A stretch of 64,000 nt of DNA from Mayamaea pseudoterrestris. Its lineage: Eukaryota. The position numbers and the translations under genes are program-made. Every line of letters starts with the position of its first letter. Within the stretch, counting starts at the first letter, position 1. This document shows, piece by piece, positions 37,893 through 64,000 of the stretch. The stretch is taken from NCBI GenBank assembly GCA_027923505.1, contig BROI01000012.1:558001-622000 (forward strand). The letters run 5' to 3'. The notes under the pieces are model-generated. The model was given only the letters and a program-made list of their open reading frames with translations. It ran no database searches and was not told where the DNA came from.

Positions 37893-38325
37893 ATGTACTT
37901 TCCCTCCACTGATACTGAAATAGTTTTAGCAAAAGATGTTTGTGTAGCCATGTTGTTGGGCTGTTTGACGCTTCAGAGATGGTCTCTTCATCATCGTCAT
38001 GGTCGAAAGAACAAATGCGCGGCCAACGTCATCCGATGAGTCACGCGCGAGCAGTTTGGCGATCGGAAGAGCCACCTTCTCGTAGTTCATGTAACCTACG
38101 GTAGTATTACCGAACGAAACTACTAATTGTGCATGCAGATTACCAAGCACAACTCGTACTGTACCAATGGATATTCACTATTTTGTCTATAGTTTGCTTT
38201 TGATAGGACGGATGTATGGCTTTCTTCATGTCGAATCGATAAAACACATATAATTCCTTTCCCCTCCAAGCTACTCGTGTGCAAAAATACCACGAGTATG
38301 GAGCAGACCTGCTTCCTAAAGAGCA

Positions 38326-43627: not shown

Positions 43628-44459
43628 GACGCTTAGATACATGCAGAATGATTGCGTCGAATTACTATTGGCGGCGACCTGAATGGCGCGGAAGTTCTGC
43701 ATCTAAATGTTTCTTGATATGTCTTTATGGTTTCCCACTGCTAGCTTATGATTCGTTGGGCGCTTTGGTGCTGATCTCCTGCTTCGGCGTTGGATGGTTC
43801 CATTGCGTCGGATACTGTATTTGCGTCCTTTGTGGTTTGTCGCTCTTTCGATTGCCCCAATGCTTGCTGCCAAGTAGCACTTGGTCATGTGTTGTTAAGG
43901 TCATTGGGGTTCAGTTGCTGTTGTCGGCGCCTTTGGCTGCAACTTTGTAGCGTTTCGAAATCGGCTGCCATGCTTCGTTGTGTGTTACTATTCCATTCTC
44001 CAGCAATTCATTTCCTTTTGTTGCTGCGTCGGAGCAACTTTCTATAGTTTCTGCATACACGACGCCAGAGTGGCCGCTGTCTTGAACGACCATGATCTTG
44101 CCTGATTTTGTCGTTGCTGAATGTTCACGGCTCCGTTTTGATTCAAAATGACTATTGAACTGACGCCACGATCATTTGTTTTATTCGGCGCAATTGCCAT
44201 GGTTTGGCTTCGCCATTTGTTAATTCCTTTGGCATGCCTCTAGGATCCTTTGGTGATATGTGGTAAGCAATCGATAGATGGCTTATGGCGAATCAACCAA
44301 TTGAAGTGCTGTGTAAGGCTCGCTTGCCGCGGAGAATCGTGACACCACAGTTGATAGAGATCAGGCACTAATCACACAAGTAACTACATCGTTAGCATAA
44401 TTTTGGTCATCTCCCTGACACATAATGAGCGCAATAGAAATTTTATCAATAACACGGTT

Positions 44460-46427
44460 TTAAATTACCTGAGCAACTGGCATGCTCAGTGCCTCGGCAT
44501 CACCAATGGGTGAAGCATCAGCATCGTTCACGGGCTCTACTCGTCGCATATTCCACTTCAAGAGCTTGTTCAAGGCCGAAGTGTAAGCGCGCGCCGACGA
44601 TGTAATGATGTCGGTATCAGAACCAGTTCCCGAGAATTTGCGATTCTTGGGACCAAGCTGTGAGTGCAGCGCAGCAGAGTCATTCGGACCGCCTTGTCGA
44701 GGCATAATCGATACCCTTGTCGTTGCCAAAGCTTCAATGCCTTCATTCACAGAGTTTAAAGAGTAAGTTTCAAGGGTAACTGATACACCTGTGATCATGT
44801 CAATTGCCTTGTAAACTGCATCAACAGGACCGGTTCCTGTGGTAGCAACGAATCGCTCAACATTATCGGGTCCGCGCATCTTGACTGTCGCCGTCGGAAT
44901 GCCGGACAGACCTGTCGCCACTTGAAGGCCCGTCACTTCCCATAGCATGTTGGATAAGCCAGCTTGGTCAGAAACTAGTGCCTCCAAGTCTTCATCTTCC
45001 AAGCCTCCCTTTTTCTTTTCGGCAACTTGCTTGAACCGAACAAAGACAGCATTCAGCTTCTCCTCGTCCAAATCGTAACCCAATTCTCTCAAGCGCGTAC
45101 CGACGGCGTTGCGCCCCGAGTGCTTGCCCAGCACAATGCCTGCTCCGCTTTGTTGATCACCTCGCATTAAACCAATACTTTCGGGCGTCATGATTTCGTA
45201 TGTACTCTTGTTCTTGATCATGCCGTCTTGATGAATACCCGACTCATGCTGAAACGCATTCGCTCCAACGATAGCCTTGTGTGGCTGACACGCCATGCCA
45301 GTATATTCCGAAACCATTTTCGACGTTGGCGTAATGTGCACTGGGTTTATCGCAGTGTGAAGCTTGCCCGACCCCGGACCACCATCAAACTGCGAGTTTC
45401 CCTTCAACGCCAAGGCCATGACAATTTCCTCCAACGATGCATTCCCCGCGCGCTCGCCAATACCATTAATGGTACATTCAAGCTGCCTCGCTCCATTCTT
45501 GGCGCCAGCCAGCGAATTGGCCGTGGCCAAGCCCAAATCGTTTTGGCAGTGCGTGCTGAAAACGACGCGATCGGCGCCCTTTACATTGGCGAGTAGCTGC
45601 TGAATCAAATTTCCAAACTCCCATGGCATGTTCCACCCCGTCGTATCTGGAATGTTTAGAGTGGTGGCGCCGGCTTCAATGACGGCAGATAGAATGCGAT
45701 ACAAAAATTCCGGATCCGATCGTCCAGCATCTTCCGGGCTAAACTCAATGTCATCGCAGCCCAAGCTCTTTGCGTATCTAACAGCTTCGACGGCAATCTC
45801 CACAACTTGATCTGGTGTCTTGTTAAGTTTGGTCTCCATGTGGATCTTGCTCGTGGCAATAAAGGTATGCACGCGCGGTAGCTTGGCGCCCTTGACCGCG
45901 TCCCACGCGCGGGCAATGTCCTTTTGGTTGGCCCGGCTGAGTCCACAAATGACTGGAACATACCCATCCTCAAACACTTCATTTCCGACGGTATCCGCGA
46001 TCTGTTTAACTGCGTTAAAGTCGTCTGGGCTGGCGATGGGAAAGCCAGCTTCAATAATGTCGACTCCCAACTTGGCAAGCATGCGAGCAATCTCAAGCTT
46101 TTCAGATGAAGTCAGTGTAGCGCCAGGCGATTGTTCGCCATCACGGAGACTCGTATCAAAGATGCGAACATAGTCTGGGTCTTCAATGTAGCCTGGAATG
46201 TATGGCGGACGAGTCTTTCGTTGGTAGAGGGCAACAATTTCTGGACTCTCCATCATGGATGACATGGAAATCTTGGTGTTTGACAAATGCCGCTGTCTTG
46301 ATACTGCTGTTATAGGGCTGTCATGAGCTCTTCTTTGCAGCAAGGAAATGGCTGGCGTAAAGGCAGATGCATAATTCGTTGCGGACCATGATGCTGCGAG
46401 AAAGGCGACTGGCAGAATGAATCTCAT
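44460..46427 (-). CDS. leuA: 2-isopropylmalate synthase, plastid-targeted
   Basis: [41 protein letters not shown] and regulatory-domain GTGPVDA. Leader MRFIL...ASA-FTP begins at ATG 46427. Confidence 0.97.
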
Positions 46428-46727
46428 AATGTAATTGACAAAGATCGCTTTTGTTCTTCTACGGGCGACGATGGAGCAGTTGAACGCAAGTTGTAGAGTC
46501 TCGGATGACGATGCGATGCAAGGAGACAACGAGACTACGTCGACGATTAGGATGGTTGTGTTGCTGTTGCTTCTTGTTGATCCGAGGCTCATCCTTGCGC
46601 ACGTTTCATCTCGCTCCGTCGCGGGTGAGGTTCGTGGCTCTGACATTTGTCGTATCGTTACATGATTTTCAGCCTCATATCCTGATCGATTTCGACGTCA
46701 AGGTGCGCCATTTCCTGAAGCTTGACC

Positions 46728-47522
46728 ATGAGGATTCCAGGCCGCTTCTTAGCTGCATTCATCTTGTTTCCGATTGATCATGCACATGGATTCTCAATAA
46801 CATCGACAGCGATGAGGAAATATCGACAATGTCCTCGTCAGCTATCGCCGAGGAACAAGCGCACTGCCCAGCTGTCAACGAGGTTGCAACCGACGCCATC
46901 ATGGCCATCATCAACAACTCTAAATCTTCTTCTCGACGTCCCCGATGGATTCTTTACCATTACCTTTCCAATGCTTGGAATCATATTGAGTTTCTCCAAG
47001 AGCTTTGCTCGAGTCCGAATGGAGGAGAATGCATGGGAGCAGCGCTTGGCGGAGGGTCGAAGGGAGCGACTTGAACGAGATCCAACATTGACTGAGATTG
47101 ACCTTCGACGACAAGAGGCCGACTTGGAATGGAGTGCATATGGAAAACCAAGAATGCAGGAGAAACAAGCAAACAAGGAACGACAAGAGCAGCGACAAGA
47201 TTATTACAGTACCAGGAGTAGGCGCGTCAAGGTCAAGGAGCGAAACATTGAATTGGACGACATTGATGACGACGAAAGGCGGAGGGATCATCGCATGACG
47301 GATTTAGAGATTGAAGCGTTCGAAATGGAGTATGGCGTCGAATATGATCCATACTATGATGATCCGTATAGTATGGACGAGCTGCCGGAAGGGTCCTTTA
47401 CGATCGACAAACGGTACGGTGATCGCGTTTACGACAATGGCGAAATCTTTTACCGCGACGCAAAATCTGGCTTGTACTACAGACAAGGAGCCAAGCCGCG
47501 GGGATCTGCTTTTCGACTCTAG
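46728..47522 (+). CDS. Plastid-targeted hypothetical protein with one TM segment
   Basis: Signal peptide ending AHG-F, TM segment FFTITFPMLGIILSF and a Y/D-rich C-terminus. Confidence 0.8.
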   Translation: MRIPGRFLAAFILFPIDHAHGFSITSTAMRKYRQCPRQLSPRNKRTAQLSTRLQPTPSWPSSTTLNLLLDVPDGFFTITFPMLGIILSFSKSFARVRMEENAWEQRLAEGRRERLERDPTLTEIDLRRQEADLEWSAYGKPRMQEKQANKERQEQRQDYYSTRSRRVKVKERNIELDDIDDDERRRDHRMTDLEIEAFEMEYGVEYDPYYDDPYSMDELPEGSFTIDKRYGDRVYDNGEIFYRDAKSGLYYRQGAKPRGSAFRL

Positions 47523-47733
47523 AAAGTAGTGGTGTGATGTGCGTCTCTGTAATAAAGACATATGGGGTGTCTTGGCATACCAAAGGCGGATCAGTACGAG
47601 TAAGCATGAAAAGGCGCAAGTAAAAGAACTAACCTAGATACATGGCGATACATTAATGACCAGATGTTACTATCATTTCGGTGTGTAACTGCTTGTCGGC
47701 AACTTTTTACAAAAACAGACGACATCTGGTCGT

Positions 47734-48987
47734 TTACGCCTTGCAGCTGCAATTTCGTTCAAGCATTCGTGTGACCATCTTTTGTGTCGCCCGTAGCCTG
47801 TCTTTTGACGCGGATTCTTCAATCACCATTACAGGCGCATTCATCGCCGACGTCTTGGTGCAGATGCCATTGACACGGAGTAATGGGCGCAAATAAAAGT
47901 CAGGCATGTGATCTCGAAGCGATGGCGGAATTTTTTGGACCATTTTCTCGTACTTGCTTGGATCGTCGTGTTCAACACAACCTCCATCAATCTCAACAGG
48001 GCGAACAGTTTGAATCATGGTGGCAATTTCAGCCATTGCTTTCGTCACAGACTCATCCTTGGCATCACTCGGAGTGTTATTCGAAGCAGGCGGTGAACTA
48101 ATGATCAGCAGTGGCATTGTCACTTTGCCGTCCCTATCAATAACTATTGCTTGGGAAACATGACGAAACCCGAGCGCCTTTGGAGGAACAACCGAGACAA
48201 CGTCCTTACCGCGGACGACTCGATGCAGTCGAACCTTCGACCGAGGAAATTGATGAATGCGATCGTCCATGAGGTCTCGCATGACTCTACCACATGTACG
48301 AGGACTCCCGGCAGTGACGGAGCAAAGAGCTTGCGGAATGGACTCCCAATCGTATTTCAAGAGAAAATAGCACGTTGCCAGAGTCGCCACGCCTGCACCT
48401 AGCGAATGTCCAGTAACATACAATGTCCGTGGAGGTTGGTCCAGTCCCAGCAGCGGCTCAATGTGCTTCTTGATTAGCGACAGCGACGCGAGAAAGTTAT
48501 TGTAAAAGCCTGTATGAACTCTTGGCGTGACTTTGTTTCCGCAAAAACAATCAAAGCAATCACAGTAGCCGCTAAAACCCTGCTCATAATCCTCATCCAC
48601 CTCCCAAACGGTTGTTGTCGTGCTAAAGTTCGTCAGCCAGTCATAGACGGATGTTGTACATCGATATGATAGAACAATTGTCTTGTCGTTGTGAGCAATG
48701 TAGCCTTGCGTGTCTAAAAAATGTCCGCCCTTGGTCATTCCGCACTCGTCAATGTGTGCATCGAGCTTCAGATCAAAATGTTTTGCGAGGATTTCCGAAA
48801 GCGGACGATGAGCATCTTCTATGCTCCCTGTTATCAGCTTCAATGCTTCCTCCTGCCATGGATTCATCCTTGTGACGCGCTTGAGAGTGGCAGGCTTGTC
48901 ATCTGTTACAGCTAGCGACGCCAACTTCATTCCGAGCAGCATTTCGCGCAAGTCCTCCTTGCTATATGTATCGTCGGAGCTCCTCAT
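47734..48987 (-). CDS. Class 3 lipase
   Basis: Motifs RVHTGFYNNF, LYVTGHSLGAGVA, GSPR, DVVSVVPP and DHMPDFY. Confidence 0.92.
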   Translation of the reverse strand: MRSSDDTYSKEDLREMLLGMKLASLAVTDDKPATLKRVTRMNPWQEEALKLITGSIEDAHRPLSEILAKHFDLKLDAHIDECGMTKGGHFLDTQGYIAHNDKTIVLSYRCTTSVYDWLTNFSTTTTVWEVDEDYEQGFSGYCDCFDCFCGNKVTPRVHTGFYNNFLASLSLIKKHIEPLLGLDQPPRTLYVTGHSLGAGVATLATCYFLLKYDWESIPQALCSVTAGSPRTCGRVMRDLMDDRIHQFPRSKVRLHRVVRGKDVVSVVPPKALGFRHVSQAIVIDRDGKVTMPLLIISSPPASNNTPSDAKDESVTKAMAEIATMIQTVRPVEIDGGCVEHDDPSKYEKMVQKIPPSLRDHMPDFYLRPLLRVNGICTKTSAMNAPVMVIEESASKDRLRATQKMVTRMLERNCSCKA

Positions 48988-49594
48988 GATTTTAACAAGT
49001 CATGCTTGAAGTTTCAGATGGCGCTTCGCTTGCTACCGTAGCTGTCATATGCCATCCACTAGTGTTTCCAAATTCCAGATGTATCTTGATGCGTTGAGCG
49101 TTGAGGCGATGAGCGTGAGCGAGCGATGAGCAATTCGCCGTAATTTCCAGTCTTTCGGCGTGATGCCAATCAATCCTCATTTATTGTGGTAATTCGTGCC
49201 TGGCTGATTATACTAATGTCAGGAGATGACAACGTGGATAGAATATGCATAGGTTGTTGTTGTCCCCGCAAACGCTCACCTCTTCTCGCCGCATCCTTCA
49301 ACTTTGTGACCAAATTCACCAAAGGCTCGCCTCGCGCGGCTCAAATGTCACAACAGTACTCACTGAACGTGTCACAGCGTGAATGAAGCGATTTTGACAC
49401 GATCAAAAAAGGACGACGTGGCGCTACAATTTGCGAGTCGTTTGATCGTGAATAGTGACTCTTTGTCTATGAATATACCGGTAGGCATTCTCGTGTCACA
49501 CAGGTTCTGTCACACATGCAATCTTTGATCTTGACGCATCGCTTCTTCGGCAACCATCAAATCGTCAGATCACCTCATCGCCTCCTTGACAACC

Positions 49595-50206
49595 ATGAAG
49601 CTTTCCACTGCATTAATCGTCTCCGCGGGCGTCTTGGTCGGGACAACGACTGCTTACAGTCTCCTTTCTCGTCGTTCCTTTGGGAATGCGGCGGTTTCTG
49701 GAGTTGGCGCCGGATTGCTGACGACGACCATGGCACCAGCAGCGTTGGCAGCCGACGACTACATCACTTTGGAGAATGGAATCCAGTACAAGGTCATCAA
49801 GGAAGGAGAAGGAGCAATTCCAGAGGCAGGGCAGAGCGTCAAGGCGCACTACACTGGATGGCTCGATGGATTTGATTCCGACAAAAAGTTTGACTCTTCT
49901 CGTGACCGTGGCCGCCCGTTCGTCTTCAAGGTTGGAGCAGGACAAGTCATTCGGGGATGGGATGACCAGTTCAGTCAAATGAAGGTCGGAGAAAGGCGTC
50001 AGATTGTTCTTCCGCCGCGCATGGCTTACGGCGACCGTGGAGGTAAGGCCTACATTTATCATGTTTGCAACGTTGAATGAAACTTTATATCGTTGAGCTT
50101 ACCAGATTTTAACTCACTTCATGTCTTATCACTATGTATAGCTGGTGGAATCATCCCTCCAGGTGCTACACTATACTTTGACGTTGAACTGCTTAACATT
50201 TTATAG
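49595..50206 (+). CDS. FKBP-type peptidyl-prolyl isomerase, plastid/lumen-targeted, 2 exons
   Basis: HYTGWL, FDSSRDRG and VIRGWD. Intron 50043-50141 joins AGGIIPPGATLYFDVELL. SRRSF Tat-like leader. Confidence 0.95.
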
Positions 50207-50221
50207 AGAAAAACAATTCTG

Positions 50222-50998
50222 CTAGTCATGTTTCTTGCTTTTCTTCGCCTTCTTTTCCTTTTTGTGCTTCTTTGCTTTCTTCGCTTCCTTGTGCGCCTGC
50301 TTTAATTGGACATCCAAAGAATTGTCCATAGCTGGTGCTGTAGAATGATCAAGCTCTTGCTTTACAATTGACGCTGCGTCATCGTCATCCCTTCGCTTTG
50401 AACTTTCGTCTTTACGCTGTCCTTTAGCAGGCGATCTGCAAGCATCCAATGCAACACTCGCCTCCACTATAGGAGGCACACTTCCGCCTCCAATGGGTGC
50501 CCACCGCCGTTTCAGCCCAGTCCGTTGCGGAACGTGCGCGTAAGCGTGACGAACATTGACTTTTGGCTCGACTGATTCAGTCGAAAGTTCCTCATGCGGT
50601 CGTAATGCAGATGCAATTGTTAAGTGTTTCTGAAAGGAAGCAGTCGAAGGTTGCAGCTCATCATTTAAATTGTTGTTGCTGCTTCCATTGTGCTTGTTGC
50701 TGGATGAGTCTGAATCCGAATCATCACTGTCCGAGCCGACGGCGTCGTCGGCTAGTTTCTTCGGTAGTAATAGTCGAAAGGAATCCGTCTCGCTTGTATT
50801 GGCAATCTGCATAGAGTATGACTGTTCATTTGATTGTATAGTAGCTGACCCGCTTAATTGTAAGGTTGTTCCATCGAGTTCCTTGACATCAAACTGTTGA
50901 GGAAGTCGGAATGTCCACAGTTGATAGCGCCTGGAATCAAAGTCAGCTGGTAACTCAAATTTCGGCGGTCCAGTTGACTTCTTAGTCACGCCATTCAT
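50222..50998 (-). CDS. RNA polymerase I subunit RPA34/A34.5-like protein
   Basis: QLWTFRLPQQFDVKELDG, PQRTGLKRRWAPIGG and a Lys-rich C-terminal tail. Confidence 0.7.
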   Translation of the reverse strand: MNGVTKKSTGPPKFELPADFDSRRYQLWTFRLPQQFDVKELDGTTLQLSGSATIQSNEQSYSMQIANTSETDSFRLLLPKKLADDAVGSDSDDSDSDSSSNKHNGSSNNNLNDELQPSTASFQKHLTIASALRPHEELSTESVEPKVNVRHAYAHVPQRTGLKRRWAPIGGGSVPPIVEASVALDACRSPAKGQRKDESSKRRDDDDAASIVKQELDHSTAPAMDNSLDVQLKQAHKEAKKAKKHKKEKKAKKSKKHD

Positions 50999-51325
50999 CC
51001 TCGACTGGCTAGCAAGACTCTTGTGAAAGCTTTACTGATAATGGATCTCCAGGAATCAGTCTCTTCGCCATGGTCGGAATGACGGAATGATGGAACGAGT
51101 TGACGACGACGCATTCGTTGGTTTTGCGAAAAAACGGACGATGGCAAGACAGTAGGGAGAACCCGTGTGACACGAAATTCCATCTTGTCGTTTCGAGCGA
51201 CGACACGACCACACAGCACCCGTCGCTGCGTCTCGCCCTTTGAATTGTTAGCATCGATCGGATCATTGACTATACCCAGTCAACTAGTGTGCACTTAGTA
51301 TAACTTTCAATAAAGTGACGCAACC

Positions 51326-51703
51326 ATGATCCCGTTGATATCCGATTTGCTGCGCGCGAGAACGGCACTGACGCTCTTTACGCACATGACAATCTCAAGC
51401 CGCACCATGGCTACCAAACGAGCCGGAGGCTCCTCCACCAACGGTCGCGACTCGGCCGGACGTCGTCTTGGAATCAAAGTATGGCCCAATCAAATGGCCA
51501 AGGCTGGAAGCATATTGATTCGACAGCGGGGACAAAAGTTTCGAGCAGGGGAAAATGTTGGCATGGGAAAGGATCATACACTCTTTGCACTTACGGAAGG
51601 AAGCGTTTATATGACGAAACTACCAACGAACAAGAAGAGAAATGTGGTTCACATTCGGCCTATTGACTTGGTGGCGTCGTCGTTAATGTCCTCGGCTGCT
51701 TAA
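51326..51703 (+). CDS. MRPL27: Mitochondrial ribosomal protein bL27
   Basis: [23 protein letters not shown] and [27 protein letters not shown], with an R/T-rich presequence. Confidence 0.95.
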
Positions 51704-51919
51704 AGTTGTGGGGACTGGACCATTGATTGGAAATGATGTGATGGATGCGCGGTTGCGAACATGTTGGCCACGTGCCTAACATTGAGAATAAAGTGGAGAC
51801 AAAATTTGAAACCAGTATGCAACTTTTTAGCATGTTTGTAACACATCTTTATTACTGTAGTTTCTTGTTCTCTTTTGCAGAAATTCAAAACAAAATTCTC
51901 GTAAAAGAACAGTCAATTG

Positions 51920-54900
51920 TATTTTGCCATCCCCTGAGACACCAGCCAAGCCTACCATCTTGTAGCGCAGCCTGAATAAGGATGTTGGCACCATTCTGGT
52001 GTATTTTGGGCACGTACAGGGCTTGGTGTAGGGGCATTTGAATGTCATGGCATCTATGGGCTGAGACTGGTGACAAGTTGTCACCAAATACATTGCCATT
52101 CCCTGAGACACCAGCCAAGCCTACCATCTTGTAGCGCAGCCTGAAAAAATGATGTTGGCACCATTCTTGTGTATTTTGGTCACCTACAGGGCTTGCTGTA
52201 GGGGCGTTTGAATGTCACGGCATCTGCGGGCTGAAATTGGTGACAAGTTGTCACCAAATACATTGCCATCCCCTGAGACACCAGCCAAGCATACCATCTT
52301 GTAGCGCAGCCTGAATAAGGATGTTGGCACCATTCTGGTGTATTTTGGGCACGTACAGGGCTTGGTGTAGGTGCGTTTGAATGTCATGGCATCTGCGGGC
52401 TGAGATTGGTGACAAGTTGTCACCAAATACATTGCCATCCCCTGAGACACCAGCCAAGCCTACCATCTTGTAGTGCAGCCTGGATAATGACGTTGGCACC
52501 ATTCTGGTGTAATTAGGGCACCTACAGGGCTTGCTGTAGGGGCGTTTGAATGTCACAGCATTTGCGGGCTGAGATTGGTGACAAGGTGTCACCAAATACA
52601 TTGCCATCCCCTGAGACACCAGCCAAGCATACCATCTTGTAGTGCAGCCTGAAAAAGGATGTTGGCACCATTCTGGTGTATTTTGGGCACGTACAGGGCT
52701 TGGTGTAGGGGCATTTGAATGTCACGGCATCTATGAGCTGAGACTGGTGACAAGTTGTCACCAAATACATTGCCATCCCCTGAGACACCAGCCAAGCCTA
52801 CCATCTTGTAGCGCAGCCTGGATAATGATGTTGGCACCATTCTGGTGTAATTTGGGCACCTACAGGGCTTGCTGTAGGTGCATTTGAATGTCACGGCATC
52901 TGTGGGCTGAGACTGGTGACAAGTTGTCATCAAATATATTGCCATCAACTGAGACACCAGCCAAGCCTACCATTTTGTAGCGCAGCCTGAACAATGATGT
53001 TGGCACCATTCTGGTGTATTTTGGGCACCTACAGGGCTTGCTGTAGGGGTGTTTGAATGTCATGGCATCTGCTGGCTGAGATTGGTGACAAGTTGTCACC
53101 AAATACATTACCATCCCCTGAGACACCAGCCAAGCCTACCATCTTGTAGTGCAGCCTGGATAATGATGTTGGCACCATTCTGGTGTAATTAGGGCACCTA
53201 CAGGGCTTGCTGTAGGTGCATTTGAATATCACGGCATCTGTGGGCTGAGACTGGTGACAAGTTGTCACCAAATACATTGCCATCCCCTGAGACACCAGCC
53301 AAGCATACCATCTTGTAGTGCAGCCTAAATAAGGATGTTGGCACCATTCTGGTGTACTTTGGGCACCTACAGGGCTTGCTGTAGGGGTGTTTGAATGTCA
53401 TGGCATCTGTGGGCTGAGATTGGTGACAAGTTGTCACCAAATACATTGCCATCCCCTGAGACACCAGCCAAACCTACCATCTTGTAGTGCAGCCTGAATT
53501 AAGGATGTTGGCACCATTCTGGTGTAATTTGGGCACCTACAGGGCTTGCTGTAGGGGCGTTTGAATGTCATGGCATCTGCGGGCTGAGATTGGTGACAAG
53601 TTGTCACCAAATACATTGCCATCCCCTGAGACACCAGCCAAGCCTACCATCTTGTAGCGCAGCCTAAATAATGATGTTGGCACCATTCTGGTGGATTTTG
53701 GGCACCTACATGGCTTGCTGTAGGGGCGTTTGAATGTCATGGCATCTGTGGGCTGAGATTGGTGACAAGTTGTCACCAAATACATTGCCATCCCCTGAGA
53801 CACCAGCCAAACCTACCATCTTTTAGTGCTGCCTGGATAATGACGTTGGCACCATTCTGGTGTATTTTGGGCACCTACAGGGCTTGCTGTAGGGGCGTTT
53901 GAATGTCATGGCATCTGCGGGCTGAGATTGGTGACAAGTTGTCACCAAATACATTGCCATCCCCTGAGACACCAGCCAAGCATACCATCTTGTAGTGCAG
54001 CCTGGATAATGATGTTGGCACCATTCTGGTGTAATTTGGGCACCTACAGGGCTTGCTGTAGGGGCATTTGAATGTCATGGCATCTATGGGCTGAGCTTTG
54101 TGACAAGTTGTCACCAAATATATTGCCATCCTCTGAGACACCAGCCAAGCCAACCACCTAGAAGCTCAGCCTGGATAATGATGGTGGCACCATTCTGGTG
54201 TAATTTGGGCACCTACAGGGCTTGCTGTAGGGGCATTTGAATGTCATGGCATCTATGGGCTGAGCTTTGTGACAAGTTGTCACCAAATATATTGCCATCC
54301 TCTGAGACACCAGCCAAGCCAACCACCTAGAAGCTCAGCCTGAATTATGATGTTGGAACCATTCTGGTGTAATTTGGGCACGTACAGGGCTTGCTGTAGG
54401 GGCGTTTGAATGTCATGGCATCTGTGGGCTGAGATTGGTGACAAGTTGTCACCAAATACATTGCCATCCCCTGAGACACCAGCCAAGCCTACCATCTTGT
54501 AGCGCAGCCTGAATAATGATGGTGGCACCATTCTGGTGTATTTTGGGCACCTACATGGCTTGCTGTAGGGGCGTTTGAATGTCATGGCATCTGCGGGCTG
54601 AGATTGGTGACAAGTTGTCACCAAATACATTGCCATCCCCTGAGACACCAGCCAGGCCTAACATCTTGTAGCGCAGCCGGAATAATGATGGTGGCACCAT
54701 TCTGGTGTATTTTGGGCACCTACATGGCTTGCTGTAGGGGCGTTTGAATGTCATGGCATCTGCGGGCTGAGATTGGTGACAAGTTGTCACCAAATACATT
54801 GCCATCCCCTGAGACACCAGCCAAGCCTACCATCTTGTAGTGCTGCCTAGATAATGACGTTGGCACCATTCTGGTGTATTTTGGGCACCTACAGGGCTTG

Positions 54901-57900
54901 CTGTAGGGGCGTTTGAATGTCATGGCATCTGCGGGCTGAGATTGGTGACAAGTTGTCACCAAATACATTGCCATCCCCTGAGACACCAGCCAAGCCTACC
55001 ATCTTGTAGTGCTGCCTGGATAATGACGTTGGCACCATTCTGGTGTATTTTGGGCACCTACAGGGCTTGCTGTAGGGGCGTTTGAATGTCATGGCATCTG
55101 CGGGCTGAGATTGGTGACAAGTTGTCACCAAATACATTGCCATCCCCTGAGACACCAGCCAAGCATACCATCTTGTAGTGCAGCCTGGATAACGATGTTG
55201 GCACCATTCTGGTGTAATTAGGGCACCTACAGGGCATGCTGTAGGGGCGTTTGAATGTCACGGCATTTGCGGGCTGAGATTGGTGACAAGTTGTCACCAA
55301 ATACATTACCATCCCCTGAGACACCAGCCAAGCATACCATCTTGTAGTGCAGCCGGAATAAGGATGTTGGCACCATTCTGGTGTATTTTGGGCACGTACA
55401 GGGCTTGGTGTAGGTGCATTTGAATGTCACGGCATCTATGGGCTGAGACTGGTGACAAGTTGTCACCAAATACATTGCCATCCCCTGAGACACCAGCCAA
55501 GCCTACCATCTTATAGCGCAGCCTGGATAATGATGTTGGCACCATTCTGGTGTATTTTGGGAACCTACAGGGCTTGCTGTAGGTGCATTTTGAATGTCAC
55601 GGCATCTATGGGCTGAGATTGGTGACAAGTTGTCACCAAATACATTACCATCCCCTGAGACACCAGCCAAGCCTACCATCTTGTAGTGCAGCCGGAATAA
55701 GGATGTTGGCACCATTCTGGTGTATTTTGGGCACCTACAGGGCTTGCTGTAGGGGCGTTTGAATGTCACGGCATCTATGGGCTGAGACTGGTGACAAGTT
55801 GTCACCAAATACATTGCCATCCCCTGAGACACCAGCCAAGCCTACCATCTTGTAGCGCAGCCTGGATAAGGATGTTGGCACCATTCTGGTGTATTTTGGG
55901 AACCTACAGGGCTTGCTGTAGGTGCATTTTGAATGTCACGGCATCTATGGGCTGAGACTGGTGACAAGTTGTCACCAAATATATTGCCATCCCCTGAGAC
56001 ACCAGCCAAGCCTACCATTTTGTAGCGCAGCCTGAAAAAATGATGTTGGCACCATTCTGGTGTATTTTGGGCACGTACAGGGCTTGGTGTAGGTGCATTT
56101 GAATGTCACGGCATCTATGGGCTGAGATTGGTGACAAGTTGTCACCAAATACATTACCATCCCCTGAGACACCAGCCAAGCATACCATCTTGTAGTGCAG
56201 CCGGAATAAGGATGTTGGCACCAATCTATTGTGTATTTTGGGCACCTACAGGGCTTGCTGTAGGGGTGTTTGAATGTCACGGCATCAGCGGGCTAAGATT
56301 GGTGACAAGTTGTCACCAAATACATTGCCATCCCCTGAGACAACAGCCAAGCCTACCATCTTGTAGCGTTGCCTGAATAATGATGCTGGCATCGTTCTGG
56401 TGTATTTTGGGCACCTACAGGGCTTGCTGGAGGTGCATTTGAATGTCACGGCATCTATGGGCTGAGACTGGTAACAAGTTGTCACCAAATATATTGCCAT
56501 CCCCTGAGACACCAGCCAAGCCTACCATCTTGTAGTGCAGCCTGGATAATGATGGTGGCACCATTCTGGTGTAATTTGGGCACCTACAGGGCTTGCTGTA
56601 GGGGCGTTTGAATGTCACGGCATCTATGGGCTGAGACTGGTGACAAGTTGTCACTAAATACATTGCCATCCCCTGAGACACCAGCTAAGCCTACCATCTT
56701 GTAGCGCAGCCTGAAAAAATGATGTTGGCACCATTCTGGTGTATTTTGGGCACCTACAGGGCTTGCTGTAGGGGCGTTTGAATGTCACAGCATCTGCGGG
56801 CTGAGACTGGTGACAAGTTGTCACCAAATACATTGCCATCACCTGAGACACCCGCCAAGCCTACCATCTTGTAGCGCATCCGGAAAAAAGATGTTAACAC
56901 CATTCTGGTGTAATTTGGGCACCTTCATGGCTTGCTGTAGGGGCGTTTGAATGTCACGGCATCTGCGGGCTGAGATTGGTGACAAGTTGTCACCAAATAG
57001 ATTGCCATCCCCTGAGACACCAGCCAAGCCCAACCATCTTGTACCGCAGCATGAATAATGATGTTGGCACCATTCTGGTGTAATTTGGGCACCTACAGGG
57101 CTTGCTGAAGGGGCGTTTGAATGTCACGGCATCTGCGGGCTGAGATTGGTGACAAGTTGTCACCAAATACATTGCCATCCTCTGAGGCACCAGCCAAGCC
57201 TACCATCTTTAAGGCAGCCTGAATAATGAAGTTGGCACCATTCTGGTGGGGCTGAGATTGGTGGGCCCGACTTTGTACGCCGATGAATAATGATGTTGGC
57301 ACCATTCTGGTGTATTTTGGGCACCTACAGGGCTTGCTGTAGGGGGGTTTGCATGTCATGGCATCTCAGGCTGAGATTGGTGACAAGTTGTCACCAAATA
57401 CATTGCCATCCTCTGAGGCACCAGCCAAGCCAGCCATCTTGTAGTGCAGCATGTATAATGATGTTGGTACCATTCTGGTGTAATTTGGGCACCTACAGGG
57501 CTTGCTGTAGGGGCGTTTGAATGTCACGGCATCTATGGGATGAGACTGGTGACAAGTTGTCACCAAATATATTGCCATCCCCTGAGACACCAGCCAAACC
57601 TACCATCTTGTTACGCAGCCATTATAAGGATGTTGGCACCATTCTGGTGTATTTTGGGCACCTACAGGGCTTGCTGTAGGCGCGTTTGAATGTCACGGCA
57701 TCTATGGGATGAGACTGGTGACAAGTTGTCACCAAAATTGCCATCCCCTGAGACACCAGCCAAGCCAACCATCTTGTAGCGCAGCCTGAATAATGATGTT
57801 GGCACCATTCTGGTGTATTTTGGGCACCTACAGGGCTTGCTGTAGGGGCGTTTGAATGTCACGGCATCTGCGGGCTGAGATTGGTGACAAGTTGTCACCA

Positions 57901-60900
57901 AATAGATTGCCATCCCCTGAGACACCAGCCAAGCCAACCATCTTGTAGCGCAGCATGAATAATGAAGTTGGCACCATTCTGGTGTAATTTGGGCACCTAC
58001 AGGGCTTGCTGTAGGGGCATTTGAATGTCACAGCATCTATGGGCTGAGACTGGTGACAAGTTGTCACCAAATACATTGCCATCCCCTGAGACACCAGCCA
58101 AGCCATGATGTGCAGACCATCTAGCCGCGCAGCCTGAATAATGATGTTGGCAGCATTCTGGTGTATTTTGGGCACCTACAGGGCTTGCTGTAGGGGCGTT
58201 TGAATGTCACGGCATCTGCGGGCTGAGATTGGTGACAAGTTGTCACCAAATATATTGCCATCCCCTGAGACACCAGCCAAGCCTACCATCTTGTAGCGCA
58301 GCCTGAATAATGATGTTGGCACCATTCTGGTGTATTTTGGGCACCTACAGGGCTTGCTGTAGGGGCGTTTGAATGTCACGGCATCTATGGGATGAGACTG
58401 GTGACAAGTTGTCACCAAATACATTGCCATCCCCTGAGACACCAGCCAAGCCAACCATCTTGCAGCGCAGCCTGAATAATGATGTTGGCAGCATTCTGGT
58501 GTTATTTGGGCACCTACAGGGCTTGCTGTAGGTGCATTTAAATGTCACGGCATCTATGGGTTGAGACTGGTGACAAGTTGTCACCAAATATATTGCCATC
58601 CCCTGAGACACCAGCCAAGCCTACCATCTTGTAGCGCAGCCTGAAAAATGATGTTGGCACCATTCTGGTGTATTTTGGGCACCTACAGGGCTTGCTGTAG
58701 GGGTGTTTGAATGTCACGGCATCTATGGGATGAGACTGGTGACAAGTTGTCACCAAATATATTGCCATCCCCTGAGACACAAGCCAAGCCTACCAACTTG
58801 TAGCGCAGCCTGAATAATGATGTTGGCACCATTCTGGTGTATTTTGGGCACCTACAGGGCTTGCTGTAGGGGCGTTTGAATGTCACGGCATCTATGGGAT
58901 GAGACTGGTTACAAGTTGTCACCAAATATATTGCCATCCCCTGAGACACCAGCCAAGCCTACCATCTTGTAGCGCAGCCTGAATAATGATGTTGGCACCA
59001 TTCTGGTGTATTTTGGGCACCTACAGGGCTTGCTGTAGGGGCGTTTGAATGTCACGGCATCTGCGGGCTGAGATTGGTGACAAGTTGTCACCAAATAGAT
59101 TGCCATCCCCTGAGACACCAGCCAAGCATACCATCTTGTAGCGCAGCCGAAATAAGGATGTTGGCACCATTCTGGTGTATTTTGGGCACCTACAGGGCTT
59201 GCTGTAGGGGCGTTTGAATGTCGCGGCATCTATGGGATGAGACTGGTGACAAGTTGTCACCAAATATATTGCCATCCCCTGATACACCAACCAAGCCAAC
59301 CATCTTGTAGCGCAGCCTGAAAAAATGATGTTGGCACCATTCTGGTGTATTTTGGGCACCTACAGGGCTTGCTGTAGGGGCGTTTGAATGTCACGGCATC
59401 TGCGGGCTGAGATTGGTGACAAGTTGTCACCAAATACATTGCCATCCTCTGAGGCACCAGCCAAGCCTACCATCTTTTAGCGCAGCCTGGATAATGATGT
59501 TGGCTCCATTCTGGTGTAATTATGGCACCTACACGGCATGCTGTAGGGGCGTTTGAATGTCTCGGCATCTGCGGGCTGAGATTGGTGACAAGGTGTCACC
59601 AAATACATTGCCATCCCCTGAGACACCCGCCAAGCCTACCATCTTGTAGCGCAGCCTGAATAATGATGTTGGCACCATTTCTGGTGTAATGTGGGCACCT
59701 ACAGGGCTTGCTGTAGGGGCGTTTGAATGTCACGGCATCTGCGGGCTGAGATTGGTGACAAGTTGTCACCAAATACATTGCCATCCTCTGAGGCACCAGC
59801 CAAGCCTACCATCTTTTAGCGCAGCCTTGATAATGATGTTGGCTCCATTCTGGTGTAATTATGGCACCTACACGGCATGCTGTAGGGGCGTTTGAATGTC
59901 TCGGCATCTGCGGGCTGAGATTGGTGACAAGGTGTCACCAAATACATTGCCATCCCCTGAGACACCAGCCAAGCCTACCATCTTGTAGCGCAGCCTGAAT
60001 AATGATGTTGGCACAACTGGTGTATTTTGGGCACCTACAGGGCTTGCTGTAGGGGCGTTTGAATGTCACGGCATCTATGGGATGAGACTGGTGACAAGTT
60101 GTCACCAAATATATTGCCATCCCCTGAGACACCAGCCAAGCCTACCATCTTGTAGCGCAGCCTGAATAATGATGTTGGCACCATTCTGGTGTATTTTGGG
60201 CACCTACAGGGCTTGCTGTAGGGGCGTTTGAATGTCACGGCATCTGCGGGCTGAGATTGGTGACAAGTTGTCACCAAATAGATTGCCATCCCCTGAGACA
60301 CCAGCCAAGCCTACCATCTTGTAGCGCAGTATGAATAATGAAGTTGGCACCATTCTGGTGTAATTTGGGCACCTACAGGGCTTGCTGTAGGGGCGTTTGA
60401 ATGTCACGGCATCTATGGGATGAGACTGGTGACAAGTTGTCACCAAATATATTGCCATCCCCTGAGACACCAGCCAAACCTACCATCTTGTTACGCAGCC
60501 ATTATAAGGATGTTGGCACCATTCTGGTGTATTTTGGGCACCTACAGGGCTTGCTGTAGGCGCGTTTGAATGTCACGGCATCTATGGGATGAGACTGGTG
60601 ACAAGTTGTCACCAAAATTGCCATCCCCTGAGACACCAGCCAAGCCAACCATCTTGTAGCGCAGCCTGAAAAAATGATGTTGGCACCATTCTGGTGTATT
60701 TTGGGCACCTACAGGGCTTGCTGTAGGGGCGTTTGAATGTCACGGCATCTGCGGGCTGAGATTGGTGACAAGTTGTCACCAAATACATTGCCATCCTCTG
60801 AGGCACCAGCCAAGCCTACCATCTTTTAGCACAGCCTGGATAATGATGTTGGCTCCATTCTGGTGTAATTATGGCACCTACACGGCATGCTGTAGGGGCG

Positions 60901-62570
60901 TTTGAATGTCTCGGCATCTGCGGGCTGAGATTGGTGACAAGGTGTCACCAAATACATTGCCATCCCCTGAGACACCCGCCAAGCCTACCATCTTGTAGCG
61001 CAGCCTGAATAATGATGTTGGCACCATTCTGGTGTAATTTGGGCACCTACAGGGCTTGCTGTAGGGGCGTTTGAATGTCACGGCATCTGCGGGCTGAGAT
61101 TGGTGACAAGTTGTCACCAAATACATTGCCATCCTCTGAGGCACCAGCCAAGCCTACCATCTTTTAGCGCAGCCTGGATAATGATGTTGGCACCATTCTG
61201 GTGTATTTTGGGCACCTACACGGCATGCTGTAGGGGCGTTTGAATGTCTCGGCATCTGCGGGCTGAGATTGGTGACAAGGTGTCACCAAATACATTGCCA
61301 TCCCCTGAGACACCCGCCAAGCCTACCATCTTGTAGCGCAGCCTGAATAATGATGTTGGCACCATTCTGGTGTAATTTGGGCACCTACAGGGCTTGCTGT
61401 AGGGGCGTTTGAATGTCACGGCATCTGTGGGCTGAGATTGGTGACAAGTTGTCACCAAATACATTGCCATCCTCTGAGGCACCAGCCAAGCCTACCATCT
61501 TTTAGCGCAGCCCGGATAATGATGTTGGCTCCATTCTGGTGTAATTATGGCACCTACACGGCATGCTGTATGGGCGTTTGAATGTCTCGGCATCTGCGGG
61601 CTGACATTGGTGACAAGGTGTCACCAAATACATTGCCATCCCCTGAGACACCAGCCAAACCTACCATCTTGTAGCGCAGCATGGATAATGTTGTTGGCAC
61701 CATTCTGGTGTTATTTGGGCACCTACAGGGCTTGCTGTAGGGGCGTTTGAATGTCACGGCATCTGCGGGCTGAGATTGGTGACAAGTTGTCACCAAATAC
61801 ATTGCCAACCCCTGAGACACCAGCCAAGCCTACCATGTTGTGGCGCAGCCTAAATAATGATGGTGGCACCATTCCGGTGTATTTTGGGCACCTACATGGC
61901 TTGCTGTAGGGGCGTTTGAATGTCACGGCATCTGCGGGCTTGCTGAGATTGGTGACAAGTTGTCACCAAATACATTGCCATCCCCTGAGACACCAGCCAA
62001 ACCTACCATCTTGTAGTGCAGCCTGAATTAAGGATGTTGGCACCATTCTGGTGTAATTTGGGCACCTACAGGGCTTGCTGTAGGGGCGTTTGAATGTCAT
62101 GGCATCTGCGGGCTGAGATTGGTGACAAGTTGTCACCAAATACATTGCCATCCCCTGAGACACCAGCCAAGCCTACCATCTTGTAGCGCAGCATGGATAA
62201 TGTTGTTGGCACCATTCTGGTGTTATTTGGGCACCTACAGGGCTTGCTGTAGGGGCGTTTGAATGTCACGGCATCTGCGGGCTGAGATTGGTGACAAGTT
62301 GTCACCAAATACATTGCCATCCCCTGAGACACCAGCCAAGCCTACCATCTTGTAGCGCAGCCTGAATAATGATTTTGGCACCATTCTGGCGTGATTTGGG
62401 TTTACGCATGGCTCTGAGAAAGGGCTGTTCAAAGTCATGGCAACTGCTGGATAGGATCTCACCGATGGCATTGCAGCATCATGAGGCATCAGCCAGGTGC
62501 TCCAACTTTTATAGCAGCCTAAAAGGGATGTTTCCATCATCCTGGTGTCTGATATGGGTCATGGGCAGGC
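51920..62570. repeat. Tandem satellite array: 169-bp monomer, ~62 copies, with a degenerate terminal copy at ~62390-62570
   Basis: Monomer ttgccatcccctgagacaccagccaagcc...ggtgacaagttgtcaccaaataca. Recurrent spurious ORFs are spaced 169 or 338 bp apart (52522, 52860, 53029, 53198). Confidence 0.99.
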
Positions 62571-62701: not shown

Positions 62702-64000
62702 ATGCCAACTACGAACAAAGATGACAGCGATGATTATGACGAGGAAGGATTAAATAACGATGATCCTCAATTCTCATCTGCTGCCCTCTGCATTGAATTT
62801 GAATTGCTCGGGCAATCCTTTCGTCCGGTTTTCACCCACCAAGTGTTTGCCGATGAGTGGATTCGCGGCTACCAACCATTTTATCAACATCTGTCAGAGA
62901 CCTTCGAGAGAAATGCACACTCGTCCTTTTCAAACCATGACAAGGTGAACATGGAGTTGGCAATTGCAATCAACTTGTCACCATCGTGCGAATATTGCAG
63001 CATAGATATGACGGTGCGCAAAATCCAGCCGCATGTTGAAGCCCGTCGCTACACCAAGCGCCCAAGACTTGAAACGACAATAAAAGCAGATGCTTGTGAC
63101 ACTCTTGTGAACGCTGAAAACTCAGAAGTCGAAAGCATTGATGCCGCGGATGAGGAATACGAGGAGGAATCTGTGAATGATGACGATGACGATGCAGCCG
63201 AGGCCAATAACATCAGTTTGCATGGAAAGGAAGGCGCGACCCGATTGGCGCGAATGCCACTGGCCGAGGTTCGGCAAGCCATGGAGTTTGCTCTTCCTCA
63301 GCATGCCCAAGACAGCATGGCTCGTTCCTGCTTTCTGCCAAGTCCGGTCGGCGAAATTATCAAGACATATCGCCACAACGACATAGAATTTGTCTTGACT
63401 CTTGCAACCGGCAAGGACGCTTTGACGTTTCACAATCAGGTCCAAAAGTTGGCAATCTGGTACATTGAGACTGCTGACGATGTTAATATTGCCGACGAGT
63501 CGGAAGGATATTGGAAGGTTCTCTATCTTTTCCGAAAGCATGAGCGAATGCAGTTTTCGTTTGCTGGCTACATGACTCTCTTTCATTTTCGATCGCCCTT
63601 TCACAAACCTACTCCTGGTGTTATTCTTCGCGTCGCACAGGCGCTACTGCTTCCTTGTTACCAGCGCATGGGGCATGGACGTACTATGCTGCACGCAGTC
63701 TTTGATAACGTTGCGGCTAACACGACGGACGCTGCCGATGATGCCATGGGGCTGTCAAAGATTGTCCAAGTTAATGTGGAAGATCCGGCACCAGAATTTA
63801 CGCAGCTTCGCAATCGAGTCGACTTGGAACGATACGTTCAGTCAAGAACGGACGCTACGGATTGGTTTGGTGAGGATGGTGACAAGATGCCAGACGATGC
63901 CTCGTTCTTTACTCCCTTGTCGGAATTAGTTCTCGCCAAGGCCGCTGGTGAAGCTAAGATTACAAAGCAGCAACTTCAGATTGTTTATGAATTGTTTCGG
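62702..64000 (+). CDS. HAT1: Histone acetyltransferase type B catalytic subunit, truncated at its 3' end by the window
   Basis: Frame from ATG 62702 reads FRPVFTHQVFADEWIRGY, FHNQVQKLAIWYIETAD, WKVLYLF, RVAQALLLPCYQRMGHG and VNVEDPAPEFTQLR. It is missing from the ORF track because no stop lies in the window. Confidence 0.92.
   Translation, partial: MPTTNKDDSDDYDEEGLNNDDPQFSSAALCIEFELLGQSFRPVFTHQVFADEWIRGYQPFYQHLSETFERNAHSSFSNHDKVNMELAIAINLSPSCEYCSIDMTVRKIQPHVEARRYTKRPRLETTIKADACDTLVNAENSEVESIDAADEEYEEESVNDDDDDAAEANNISLHGKEGATRLARMPLAEVRQAMEFALPQHAQDSMARSCFLPSPVGEIIKTYRHNDIEFVLTLATGKDALTFHNQVQKLAIWYIETADDVNIADESEGYWKVLYLFRKHERMQFSFAGYMTLFHFRSPFHKPTPGVILRVAQALLLPCYQRMGHGRTMLHAVFDNVAANTTDAADDAMGLSKIVQVNVEDPAPEFTQLRNRVDLERYVQSRTDATDWFGEDGDKMPDDASFFTPLSELVLAKAAGEAKITKQQLQIVYELFR

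What the first reader, a model, noticed from the sequence alone, without database searches (positions are those of the whole stretch)
51920..62570. 10.5-kb array of a nucleosome-sized 169-bp satellite: candidate satellite centromere or heterochromatin block in a diatom-like genome
Seen: ~62 head-to-tail 169-bp monomers, non-coding (169 is not a multiple of 3) and not obviously AT-enriched, inside otherwise compact gene-dense DNA. Established: monomers of this size typify centromeric satellites (primate alpha 171 bp, Arabidopsis 178 bp), whereas the centromeres characterised in Phaeodactylum tricornutum are short low-GC sequences without such satellites. Inference: this could be a different, satellite-based centromere type or a chromatin-organising array.
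Basis: partly seen in the sequence, partly recalled or inferred. Interest (0 to 1): 0.8.

Follow-up and report, generated by a model that had tools for sequence, protein, structure and literature searches.

The report
Abundant 169-bp diatom satellite array
A real 10.5-kb block of a 169-base non-coding repeat lies between two ordinary genes of a small raphid diatom; short-read data suggest tens of thousands of copies of this repeat in the genome, and it carries the mutation pattern of methylated DNA, but nothing yet shows it is a centromere.

Summary
There are 61.5 head-to-tail units of 169 bp at 51924-62400, plus a decayed last unit to about 62548. The array is non-coding, GC-neutral, and matches no RNA family. 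It lies 220 bp after an L27 gene and about 150 bp before a HAT1-like gene.

The host is a diatom. One window protein is residue-for-residue identical over 478 aa to a protein NCBI names Mayamaea pseudoterrestris.

Three new points:
- Contigs of two runs cross the left junction without a mismatch. In the same runs the monomer draws about 32,000-130,000 times the single-copy word depth. This is a rough figure, but it means the family is far larger than these 62 copies.
- CpG observed/expected is 0.30 in the array against 1.09 outside. The four CpGs are the mutation hot spots. This is the mark of long-term cytosine methylation.
- Each unit carries a 21-bp palindrome.

The species' genome paper lists "Satellites: 0".

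The heterochromatin reading is supported by sequence. The centromere reading is untested and fits poorly with known diatom centromeres, which are low-GC and repeat-free. No genome was held, so arrays per chromosome could not be counted.

The parts
51924..62400 (.). Tandem array of 61.5 units of the 169-bp satellite
   Evidence: period 169, 88% matches, mean pairwise identity 0.91. GC 0.502, CpG observed/expected 0.30.
62401..62548 (.). Strongly diverged terminal unit at the right edge; it has lost the left half of the palindrome
   Evidence: the consensus dimer aligns from 62306 to 62548 at 73.6% over 258 nt. One search gives the alignment.
51704..51923 (.). Unique 220-bp left flank and junction, including the lowest-GC 100-bp windows of the window (27-30% GC)
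   Evidence: one contig in X1 (2519 nt, depth 118.1) and one in X2 (2522 nt, depth 31) run from 50200 to 51949 and 51952 with 0 other letters, crossing the junction. One search gives the GC values.
51326..51703 (+). Left neighbour gene: ribosomal protein L27 with an N-terminal extension (organellar type)
   Evidence: ORF; PF01016, E 1.2e-31.
62702..64000 (+). Right neighbour: ORF with a weak HAT1 N-terminal match; it runs off the end of the window
   Evidence: ORF open at its 3' end; PF10394, E 4.4e-07.
52406..52426 (.). One example of the 21-bp palindrome found once per unit (10-bp arms around a single central base)
   Evidence: Exact in 32 of 61 copies; the 8-bp arm core is intact in 51 of 61. 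Only 0.3% of 5000 dinucleotide shuffles of the consensus reach arms of 10 or more.
52521..52540 (.). One example of the second dyad found once per unit (7-bp arms, 6-nt spacer)
   Evidence: Exact in 42 of 61 copies. Two separate dyads with arms of at least 7 occur in 1.3% of shuffles.
57164..57394 (.). Aberrant 231-bp unit with a 62-bp insert made of rearranged pieces of the monomer
   Evidence: one search also reports a 232-bp period at 57051-57480.
59261..61625 (.). Stretch with a local two-unit (338-bp) higher-order pattern: a variant unit alternates with consensus-like units
   Evidence: the variant pattern is shared by the units starting at 59431, 59770, 60780, 61118 and 61456. The three-unit block 57395-57730 has a look-alike at 60275-60610: the middle units carry the same variant pattern and the outer two nearly so.

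Best explanation
This is one locus of a very high-copy nuclear satellite-DNA family with a 169-bp unit, in the raphid diatom Mayamaea (M. pseudoterrestris or a near-identical relative). It codes for nothing. It grows, shrinks and homogenises by unequal exchange and local block duplication. It has long been CpG-methylated, meaning it sits in silenced, heterochromatin-like chromatin. Shown: the array, its left junction, its non-coding nature, its CpG decay, and a depth excess of at least 10^4-fold in short-read contigs. Inferred: methylation and heterochromatin, the genome-wide copy number, and the lack of any gene-like function at this locus. Open: whether the family as a whole marks centromeres or pericentromeres, and whether 10.5 kb is the true length of this array.
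For: Array and units. Non-coding: longest ORF 122 aa; 4 of the 102 ORFs were scanned in Pfam and gave one hit, far below cut-off at E 0.31; no Rfam match; no tRNA; RNA folding no better than shuffles, z +0.44 and +0.16.

Real junction: contigs of X1 and X2 cross 51924 with 0 mismatches at single-copy depth.

High copy: in X1 the flank depth is 118.1 against summed depths of 6.5, 9.8 and 15.4 million on the monomer, and 39,410 of 555,133 contigs were laid. In X2 the flank depth is 31 against 1.0-1.6 million, and 8,296 of 182,933 contigs were laid. Head-to-tail joints that go back 169 bp at 52092->51924 occur in 46 (X1), 27 (X2), 6 (X6) and 12 (X7) contigs.

Methylation footprint: CpG observed/expected is 0.30 in the array against 1.09 outside. 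All 26 two-kb windows that lie wholly outside the array give 0.93-1.28; the 5 inside give 0.20-0.39. TG and CA are at 1.63 and 1.70 against 1.18 and 1.19 outside. Substitutions per site per unit are 0.176 at CpG sites against 0.044 elsewhere. 78 of 83 CpG substitutions are transitions, against 162 of 417 elsewhere. All 4 CpGs have a site changed in 13-27 of 59 units, against 6 of 161 other sites. In the closest model, P. tricornutum, loss of DNMT5a removes methylation and de-represses transposons (PMC9998398, abstract read).

Unequal-exchange dynamics: local dimeric pattern, duplicated three-unit block, decayed edge unit.
Against: The tool states that summed contig depth is not a copy number. 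Neighbouring contigs overlap by k-1 letters, so my ratio may be about 1.4-2 times too high. No read-level depth was available.

CpG depletion of a single 169-bp founder could be partly chance (4 CpGs against about 11 expected). Substitutions are counted per unit, not per event, so inherited changes count several times. No methylation data were seen.

The genome paper's k-mer size estimate (27.2 Mb) is close to its assembly size (30.6 Mb), which leaves no obvious room for several Mb of satellite. From my recollection, such estimates cap very frequent k-mers, which would hide a satellite.

The palindrome, and its core's roughly halved substitution rate (0.024 against 0.050), could point to a sequence-specific function that this 'inert' reading ignores.
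Confidence: 0.7

Rival explanations
1. Satellite centromere. The 169-bp family is the centromeric or pericentromeric repeat of this diatom, and the array in the window is a true or collapsed centromeric array. CENH3 nucleosomes would sit on the nucleosome-sized units, with the palindrome acting as a protein-binding or cruciform element.
For: The unit is nucleosome-sized, and it is a very abundant tandem repeat in the genome's short-read contigs. In animals and plants the most abundant tandem repeat is often the centromeric one (recalled, not checked here). Each unit has a 21-bp palindrome plus a second dyad, more than shuffles give. The array length of 10.5 kb is close to the 8.6-kb read N50 of the species' published assembly, so a much longer array could have been collapsed to this size.
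Against: The closest relatives with studied centromeres (P. tricornutum by ChIP and episome assays; F. solaris by prediction and episome assays) have short, low-GC, non-repetitive centromeres, and Mayamaea clusters with P. tricornutum. The array is 50% GC. Genes lie 150-220 bp from both ends. No test of one array per chromosome and no CENH3 test was possible.
Confidence: 0.17
2. Assembly collapse. The array and its left junction are real, but 10.5 kb is an artefact of the assembler. The true array is far longer, or the two flanks are joined wrongly through a shared repeat.
For: The family's depth is at least 10^4 times single copy, yet only 62 units are assembled here. The published assembly of the species used reads with an N50 of 8.6 kb, and its repeat table lists no satellites and only 2.26 Mb of unclassified repeats. 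Only the left junction was checked against independent contigs.
Against: The units carry ordered, position-specific variants, a duplicated block and a decayed edge unit, as in a genuinely assembled array. The window continues into unique sequence on both sides.
Confidence: 0.3
3. Transposon-derived tandem array. The unit comes from the internal or terminal repeats of a mobile element (for example a foldback or MITE-like element whose inverted repeat survives as the palindrome) and spread with it.
For: The palindrome lies at my arbitrarily chosen unit boundary. The family is dispersed enough to produce joints of many lengths, going back 141-169 bp.
Against: The flanks hold no transposon ORF, LTR or target-site-like structure, and the array abuts ordinary genes. 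There are no solo copies in the other 53 kb of the window: 4 HSPs outside the array, none longer than 19 nt. The 4 ORFs scanned gave no Pfam match. No transposon library (Repbase or Dfam) was available, so the direct test was not run.
Confidence: 0.08
4. Array of small structured-RNA genes, or an extrachromosomal high-copy amplicon, rather than chromosomal satellite DNA.
For: Very high depth and several short hairpins per unit.
Against: No Rfam family at E up to 1 on 51500-53500 or at gathering score on the whole window. Folding energy is no better than shuffles on either strand. The array is joined to single-copy nuclear genes. CpG decay points to nuclear methylated DNA.
Confidence: 0.03

Closest known systems
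Centromeric satellites of animals and plants
   Same: Nucleosome-sized unit, head-to-tail arrays, about 90% identity between units, local higher-order patterns, very high copy number, short dyad symmetries.
   Different: No CENH3 or positional evidence. GC-neutral. The assembled array is only 10.5 kb and lies between genes. No array-wide higher-order repeat: identity at lags 1-15 is flat at 0.912-0.925.
PpSat1 and PpSat2 satellites of the oomycete Phytophthora parasitica (PMC7290008; results sections read)
   Same: Satellite families of a stramenopile that only came to light in long-read assemblies. Arrays of tens of units, collapsed or missing in short-read assemblies. No match in repeat libraries. 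PpSat1 also occurs in related species.
   Different: Units of 337 and 143 bp with GC of 37% and 59%, against 169 bp and 51% here. A few hundred copies were reported, against at least 10^4 inferred here. Sequences were not compared because none were on hand.
Centromeres of Phaeodactylum tricornutum (bioRxiv 10.1101/096016, passages read) and predicted centromeres of Fistulifera solaris (bioRxiv 10.1101/2021.11.10.468027, passages read)
   Same: These are the nearest relatives with studied centromeres, so they are the natural expectation for Mayamaea.
   Different: They are short low-GC regions that lack repeats. About 500 bp of low-GC DNA is enough in P. tricornutum, and the F. solaris regions are 36-42% GC. 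The array here is 50% GC and purely repetitive. The lowest-GC 500-bp stretch anywhere in the window is 43%.
CpG-methylated transposons of P. tricornutum (PMC9998398, abstract read)
   Same: Repeats are the main methylation target in the closest model diatom. The array's CpG decay fits the same silencing route.
   Different: Those are Copia-type transposons, not a satellite. Methylation here is inferred from the mutation pattern, not measured.

Membership tests
Satellite DNA | Long head-to-tail array of a unit of about 100 bp or more | tested here: met
   61.5 units of 169 bp; 53 of 60 spacings are 169 or 170 bp.
Satellite DNA | Non-coding | tested here: met
   Longest ORF 122 aa. No Pfam hit in the 4 of 102 ORFs scanned. 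No Rfam family or tRNA.
Satellite DNA | High copy number in the genome | tested here: met
   Summed word depth on the monomer is 32,000-130,000 times the single-copy flank in X1 and X2. This is rough: it may be 1.4-2 times too high, and the tool warns it is not a copy number.
Centromeric satellite | Occupied by CENH3 (CENP-A) nucleosomes | not testable with these tools
   No ChIP or CUT&Tag data were available.
Centromeric satellite | About one major array per chromosome | not testable with these tools
   No genome is held for the window. No other copy lies in the remaining 53 kb.
Centromeric satellite | Array-wide higher-order repeat structure (typical, not obligatory) | tested here: inconclusive
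   Only a local two-unit pattern at 59261-61625 and one duplicated block. Identity against lag is flat.
Phaeodactylum-type diatom centromere | Low-GC region of at least about 500 bp (many 100-bp windows at or below 32% GC) | tested here: not met
   Array GC is 0.502. The minimum 500-bp GC in the window is 0.432. Only 161 scattered 100-bp windows reach 32% or less, and the positions seen (the first 50 printed, and the lowest-GC 100-bp windows) all lie outside the array.
Phaeodactylum-type diatom centromere | Lacks repeats or conserved sequence | tested here: not met
   The feature is a pure tandem repeat.
Transposon-derived tandem repeat | Unit matches part of a known mobile element | not testable with these tools
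   No Repbase or Dfam on hand. Indirectly: no transposon ORFs or LTRs beside the array.
Methylated heterochromatic repeat | 5mC or H3K9/K27 methylation over the array | tested here: inconclusive
   Only the mutational footprint could be tested. CpG observed/expected is 0.30 against 1.09, CpG sites change 4 times more often, and 94% of those changes are transitions. No direct methylation data.

The most novel reading that the evidence does not exclude
Mayamaea has switched centromere type relative to its sister Phaeodactylum. Megabase-scale, CpG-methylated arrays of the 169-bp satellite, each unit carrying a conserved 21-bp palindrome as a protein-binding or cruciform element, would form its centromeres or pericentromeric heterochromatin. 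The published 'compact' 30.6-Mb genome would then miss several to some 20 Mb of nuclear DNA. The array in this window would be one such array, collapsed to about read length.
Probability: 0.15. Interest if true: 0.85.

Novelty: new member of a known kind. Interest (0 to 1): 0.6.

Why it matters
Diatom genomes are treated as poor in satellite DNA, and the only diatom centromeres studied are short, low-GC and repeat-free. My searches of the paper library found no description of a diatom satellite DNA family. The genome paper of this species lists zero satellites.

A GC-neutral, nucleosome-sized satellite with tens of thousands of copies, in the sister lineage of the model P. tricornutum, would have three consequences:
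- The genome of a proposed freshwater model diatom is larger and more heterochromatic than reported.
- Diatom epigenetics gains a natural tandem-repeat target for the methylation machinery.
- Centromere turnover within Naviculales becomes directly testable with one FISH probe and one CENH3 ChIP.

If the family turns out to be ordinary non-centromeric heterochromatin, it is still a useful marker and a warning about k-mer genome-size estimates.

Tried and rejected
Whole-genome mapping of the monomer: no genome is held for the window, so arrays per chromosome could not be counted.

RNA evidence: no RNA holder is listed among the 9 runs. Nothing can be said about transcription.

Parts of the flank without cover in X6 and X7 are not evidence of absence.

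Public collections: two patterns in metagenome contigs and one in viral contigs gave 0 matches.

Earlier findings of this scan, by genome, sequence, relatives and words: nothing relevant.

Structured RNA: no Rfam match, no tRNA, folding z about 0.

Coding: Pfam on 4 array ORFs gave only E 0.31.

Nucleosome-positioning signal: the AA/TT-type dinucleotide spectrum of the consensus has no clear 10-bp peak; the top periods are 12.1, 28.2 and 3.7.

Oomycete origin and identity with PpSat1 or PpSat2: considered, then rejected on unit length, GC and the diatom protein matches.

The bacterial promoter and terminator scan of the right edge found nothing and does not apply to a eukaryote.

Conservation across species: X6 and X7 (organisms C and D) hold tandem copies of the satellite. 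However, they come from the same study as X1, at only 0.06-0.5% of X1's summed depth, and with the same 12 variant positions at mostly similar shares. Carry-over between libraries cannot be excluded, so I do not count this as evidence of conservation.

Coordinate or format slips that I corrected.
Full report
**Observation.** Tandem Repeats Finder reports one array at 51924-62400 with period 169, 61.5 copies, 88% matches, 2% indels and score 15636. Cutting at a conserved 15-nt anchor gives 61 units. Of the 60 spacings, 53 are 169 or 170 bp and the other 7 are 166, 166, 167, 171, 173, 179 and 231 bp. The 59 units of 165-175 bp are on average 91% identical pairwise. Identity against distance is flat (0.912-0.925 for lags 1-15), so there is no array-wide higher-order repeat. 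The consensus aligns on into a strongly diverged last unit that ends near 62548. The 231-bp unit holds a 62-bp insert of rearranged monomer pieces. Outside 51.9-62.55 kb the window has no copy of the unit: the 4 HSPs there are no longer than 19 nt, with E of at least 0.21.

**Non-coding, no known RNA.** Of 102 ORFs of at least 40 aa that overlap the array, the longest is 122 aa. That is shorter than the 507 bp over which a 169-bp unit returns to frame. I scanned 4 of these ORFs in Pfam and got one hit, far below cut-off at E 0.31. Rfam gives nothing at E up to 1 on 51500-53500, and nothing at gathering score on the whole window. There is no tRNA. One unit folds no better than its shuffles on either strand (z +0.44 and +0.16).

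**Setting and organism.**
- The window is gene-dense: 29 ORFs of at least 200 aa, and 11 of the 14 I scanned have Pfam families.
- The array lies 220 bp after an L27 gene with an N-terminal extension (51326-51703, +). It lies about 150 bp before an ORF with a weak HAT1 N-terminal match (62702 onward, +). An RPA34-like gene lies further left.
- The named best matches of an isopropylmalate synthase are all diatoms.
- The inositol-phosphate synthase ORF matches the protein that NCBI names Mayamaea pseudoterrestris at 481 of 489 residues. Every residue from 109 to 586 is identical, and the differing start is explained by an intron.
- The organism is therefore that species or a near-identical relative.
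- From its genome paper (PMC9724779: passages and supplementary tables S1-S3 read):
  - The assembly is 30.6 Mb in 41 contigs, built from nanopore reads with an N50 of 8.6 kb.
  - The k-mer size estimate is 27.2 Mb and GC is 49.5%.
  - Repeats make up 19% of the assembly, mainly Copia.
  - The repeat table lists "Satellites: 0 elements, 0 bp" and 2.26 Mb unclassified.
  - The words satellite, centromere and methylation do not occur in the main text.
  - The species clusters with P. tricornutum (bootstrap 93), with F. solaris branching next.

**The junction is real and the family is huge.** Nine public runs hold part of 51300-55300. I laid four of them on 50200-52100, which is the flank plus a single unit.

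| Run | Flank depth | Summed depth on the unit | Ratio to flank | Contigs laid |
|---|---|---|---|---|
| X1 | 118.1 | 15.4, 6.5 and 9.8 million (three full bins) | 55,000-130,000 | 39,410 of 555,133 |
| X2 | 31 | 1.0-1.6 million | 32,000-52,000 | 8,296 of 182,933 |

- In X1 a 2519-nt contig covers 50200-51949 with no mismatch, and in X2 a 2522-nt contig covers 50200-51952. The flank-to-satellite junction therefore exists in reads independent of the window.
- Joints that go back exactly 169 bp (52092->51924) occur in 46, 27, 6 and 12 contigs of X1, X2, X6 and X7. The tandem arrangement is thus general.
- Other joints go back 141-165 bp, so the family includes units of other lengths.
- The tool warns that summed contig depth is not a copy number. 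Neighbouring contigs also overlap by k-1 letters, which I estimate inflates the sum 1.4-2 times.
- Even after halving, the figure is at least 16,000 copies (about 2.7 Mb) in X2. The uncorrected upper end is about 22 Mb in X1.
- Either way, more than 99% of the family lies outside the 62 units assembled here, and most of it cannot be in a 30.6-Mb assembly whose unclassified repeats total 2.26 Mb.
- The k-mer size estimate in the paper does not contradict this if very frequent k-mers were capped. That is my recollection of the method's default, not something I checked.

**Other organisms.** X6 and X7 (organisms C and D) hold tandem copies of the satellite but not the flank. They belong to the same study as X1. 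Their summed depths are only 0.06-0.5% of X1's, and they show the same 12 variant positions, mostly in similar proportions. Carry-over between libraries would produce exactly this picture, so I do not count it as conservation across species.

**Methylation footprint.**
- CpG observed/expected is 0.30 in the array and 1.09 in the other 53.3 kb.
- All 26 two-kb windows wholly outside the array lie at 0.93-1.28. The five inside lie at 0.20-0.39. The mixed last window is at 0.81.
- TG and CA are raised to 1.63 and 1.70, against 1.18 and 1.19 outside.
- Among the 59 aligned units, CpG positions carry 0.176 substitutions per site per unit, against 0.044 elsewhere.
- 78 of 83 CpG substitutions are transitions, against 162 of 417 elsewhere.
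- Each of the 4 CpGs has a site changed in 13-27 units. Only 6 of the 161 other sites reach 13.
- Caveats: changes are counted per unit, not per event, and a single founder unit can be CpG-poor by chance.
- Still, the two signals together are what deamination of 5-methylcytosine leaves. In the sister model, methylation targets repeats (PMC9998398, abstract).

**Dyads.**
- The consensus holds a 21-bp palindrome with 10-bp arms. Only 0.3% of 5000 dinucleotide shuffles reach such arms.
- A second dyad has 7-bp arms. Two such dyads occur in 1.3% of shuffles.
- The palindrome is exact in 32 of 61 copies, and its 8-bp core arms are intact in 51 of 61.
- The core changes about half as often as the rest of the unit: 0.024 against 0.050 per site per unit, with CpG sites excluded.
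- This is a lead for a binding site or a cruciform, not a demonstration.

**Array dynamics.** Variant patterns show a local two-unit repeat at 59261-61625 and a duplicated three-unit block (57395-57730 resembling 60275-60610). The right edge unit is decayed, and CpG loss falls off from left to right across the array. This is the usual picture of unequal exchange.

**Centromere question.**
- For: a nucleosome-sized unit, very high abundance, dyad symmetry, and an assembled length close to the read length of the published assembly, which allows for collapse.
- Against: the studied centromeres of the nearest relatives are short, low-GC and free of repeats. The array is 50% GC. No 500-bp stretch in the window falls below 43% GC. 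Genes abut both ends.
- The decisive tests (arrays per chromosome, CENH3) could not be run.
- I put the centromere reading for the family at about 0.15-0.2.

**Literature.** Searches for diatom satellite DNA, a 169-bp unit, and centromere, Hi-C or tandem-repeat terms returned no paper describing a diatom satellite family. The nearest case in a stramenopile is PpSat1/PpSat2 of Phytophthora parasitica, which differ in unit length and GC. Supplements of the bioRxiv preprints were not seen.

**Verdict.** What is there is a new, unannotated, very high-copy satellite DNA family of a raphid diatom, seen at one interstitial locus, with sequence marks of long-term CpG methylation. The heterochromatin reading is supported indirectly. 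The centromere reading stays open and is the less likely one.

Noticed in passing
window 6966-7376: A separate 410-bp minisatellite (units of about 50 bp paired into 104-bp dimers, 3.3 copies at 91%) ends about 70 bp before the ATG of ORF 7443-8234 (+). It is unrelated in sequence to the 169-bp unit.
   Followed up: partly
window 51776-51925: The lowest-GC 100-bp windows of the whole window (27-30% GC) lie directly against the left edge of the array, in the L27 3' region. At about 150 bp the stretch is too short to match the low-GC centromere criterion.
   Followed up: partly
loose ends (runs X1, X2), at the unit's palindrome: Genome-wide variants of the unit appear to carry a changed base in one palindrome arm together with the complementary change in the other arm, which would keep the symmetry. 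An intermediate form also appears. This was seen only in consensus strings with 0.75-0.91 agreement.
   Followed up: no
runs X4 and X5: Two runs of unknown kind, with small contig sets (17-20 million letters), hold 21-22% of the sampled words of 51300-55300. That is more than the L27 flank alone would give (about 15%). If they are RNA runs, the satellite may be transcribed.
   Followed up: no
window 9965-10290: The inositol-phosphate synthase ORF differs from the annotated Mayamaea protein only before residue 109, which fits a 5' intron. Naive ORF calls in this window therefore overrun some exon borders.
   Followed up: partly
window 42000-44000: A strong local GC skew (+0.21) and AT skew (-0.19), with GGC/GGT-type 15- and 21-bp repeats at 42778-42834 and 43079-43129. 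This is probably a glycine-rich coding stretch.
   Followed up: no
window 27549-27605 and 24864-24973: A (TGC)19 microsatellite, and a 57-bp repeat (1.9 copies) enclosing a 9-bp repeat, the latter inside ORF 24042-25214.
   Followed up: no
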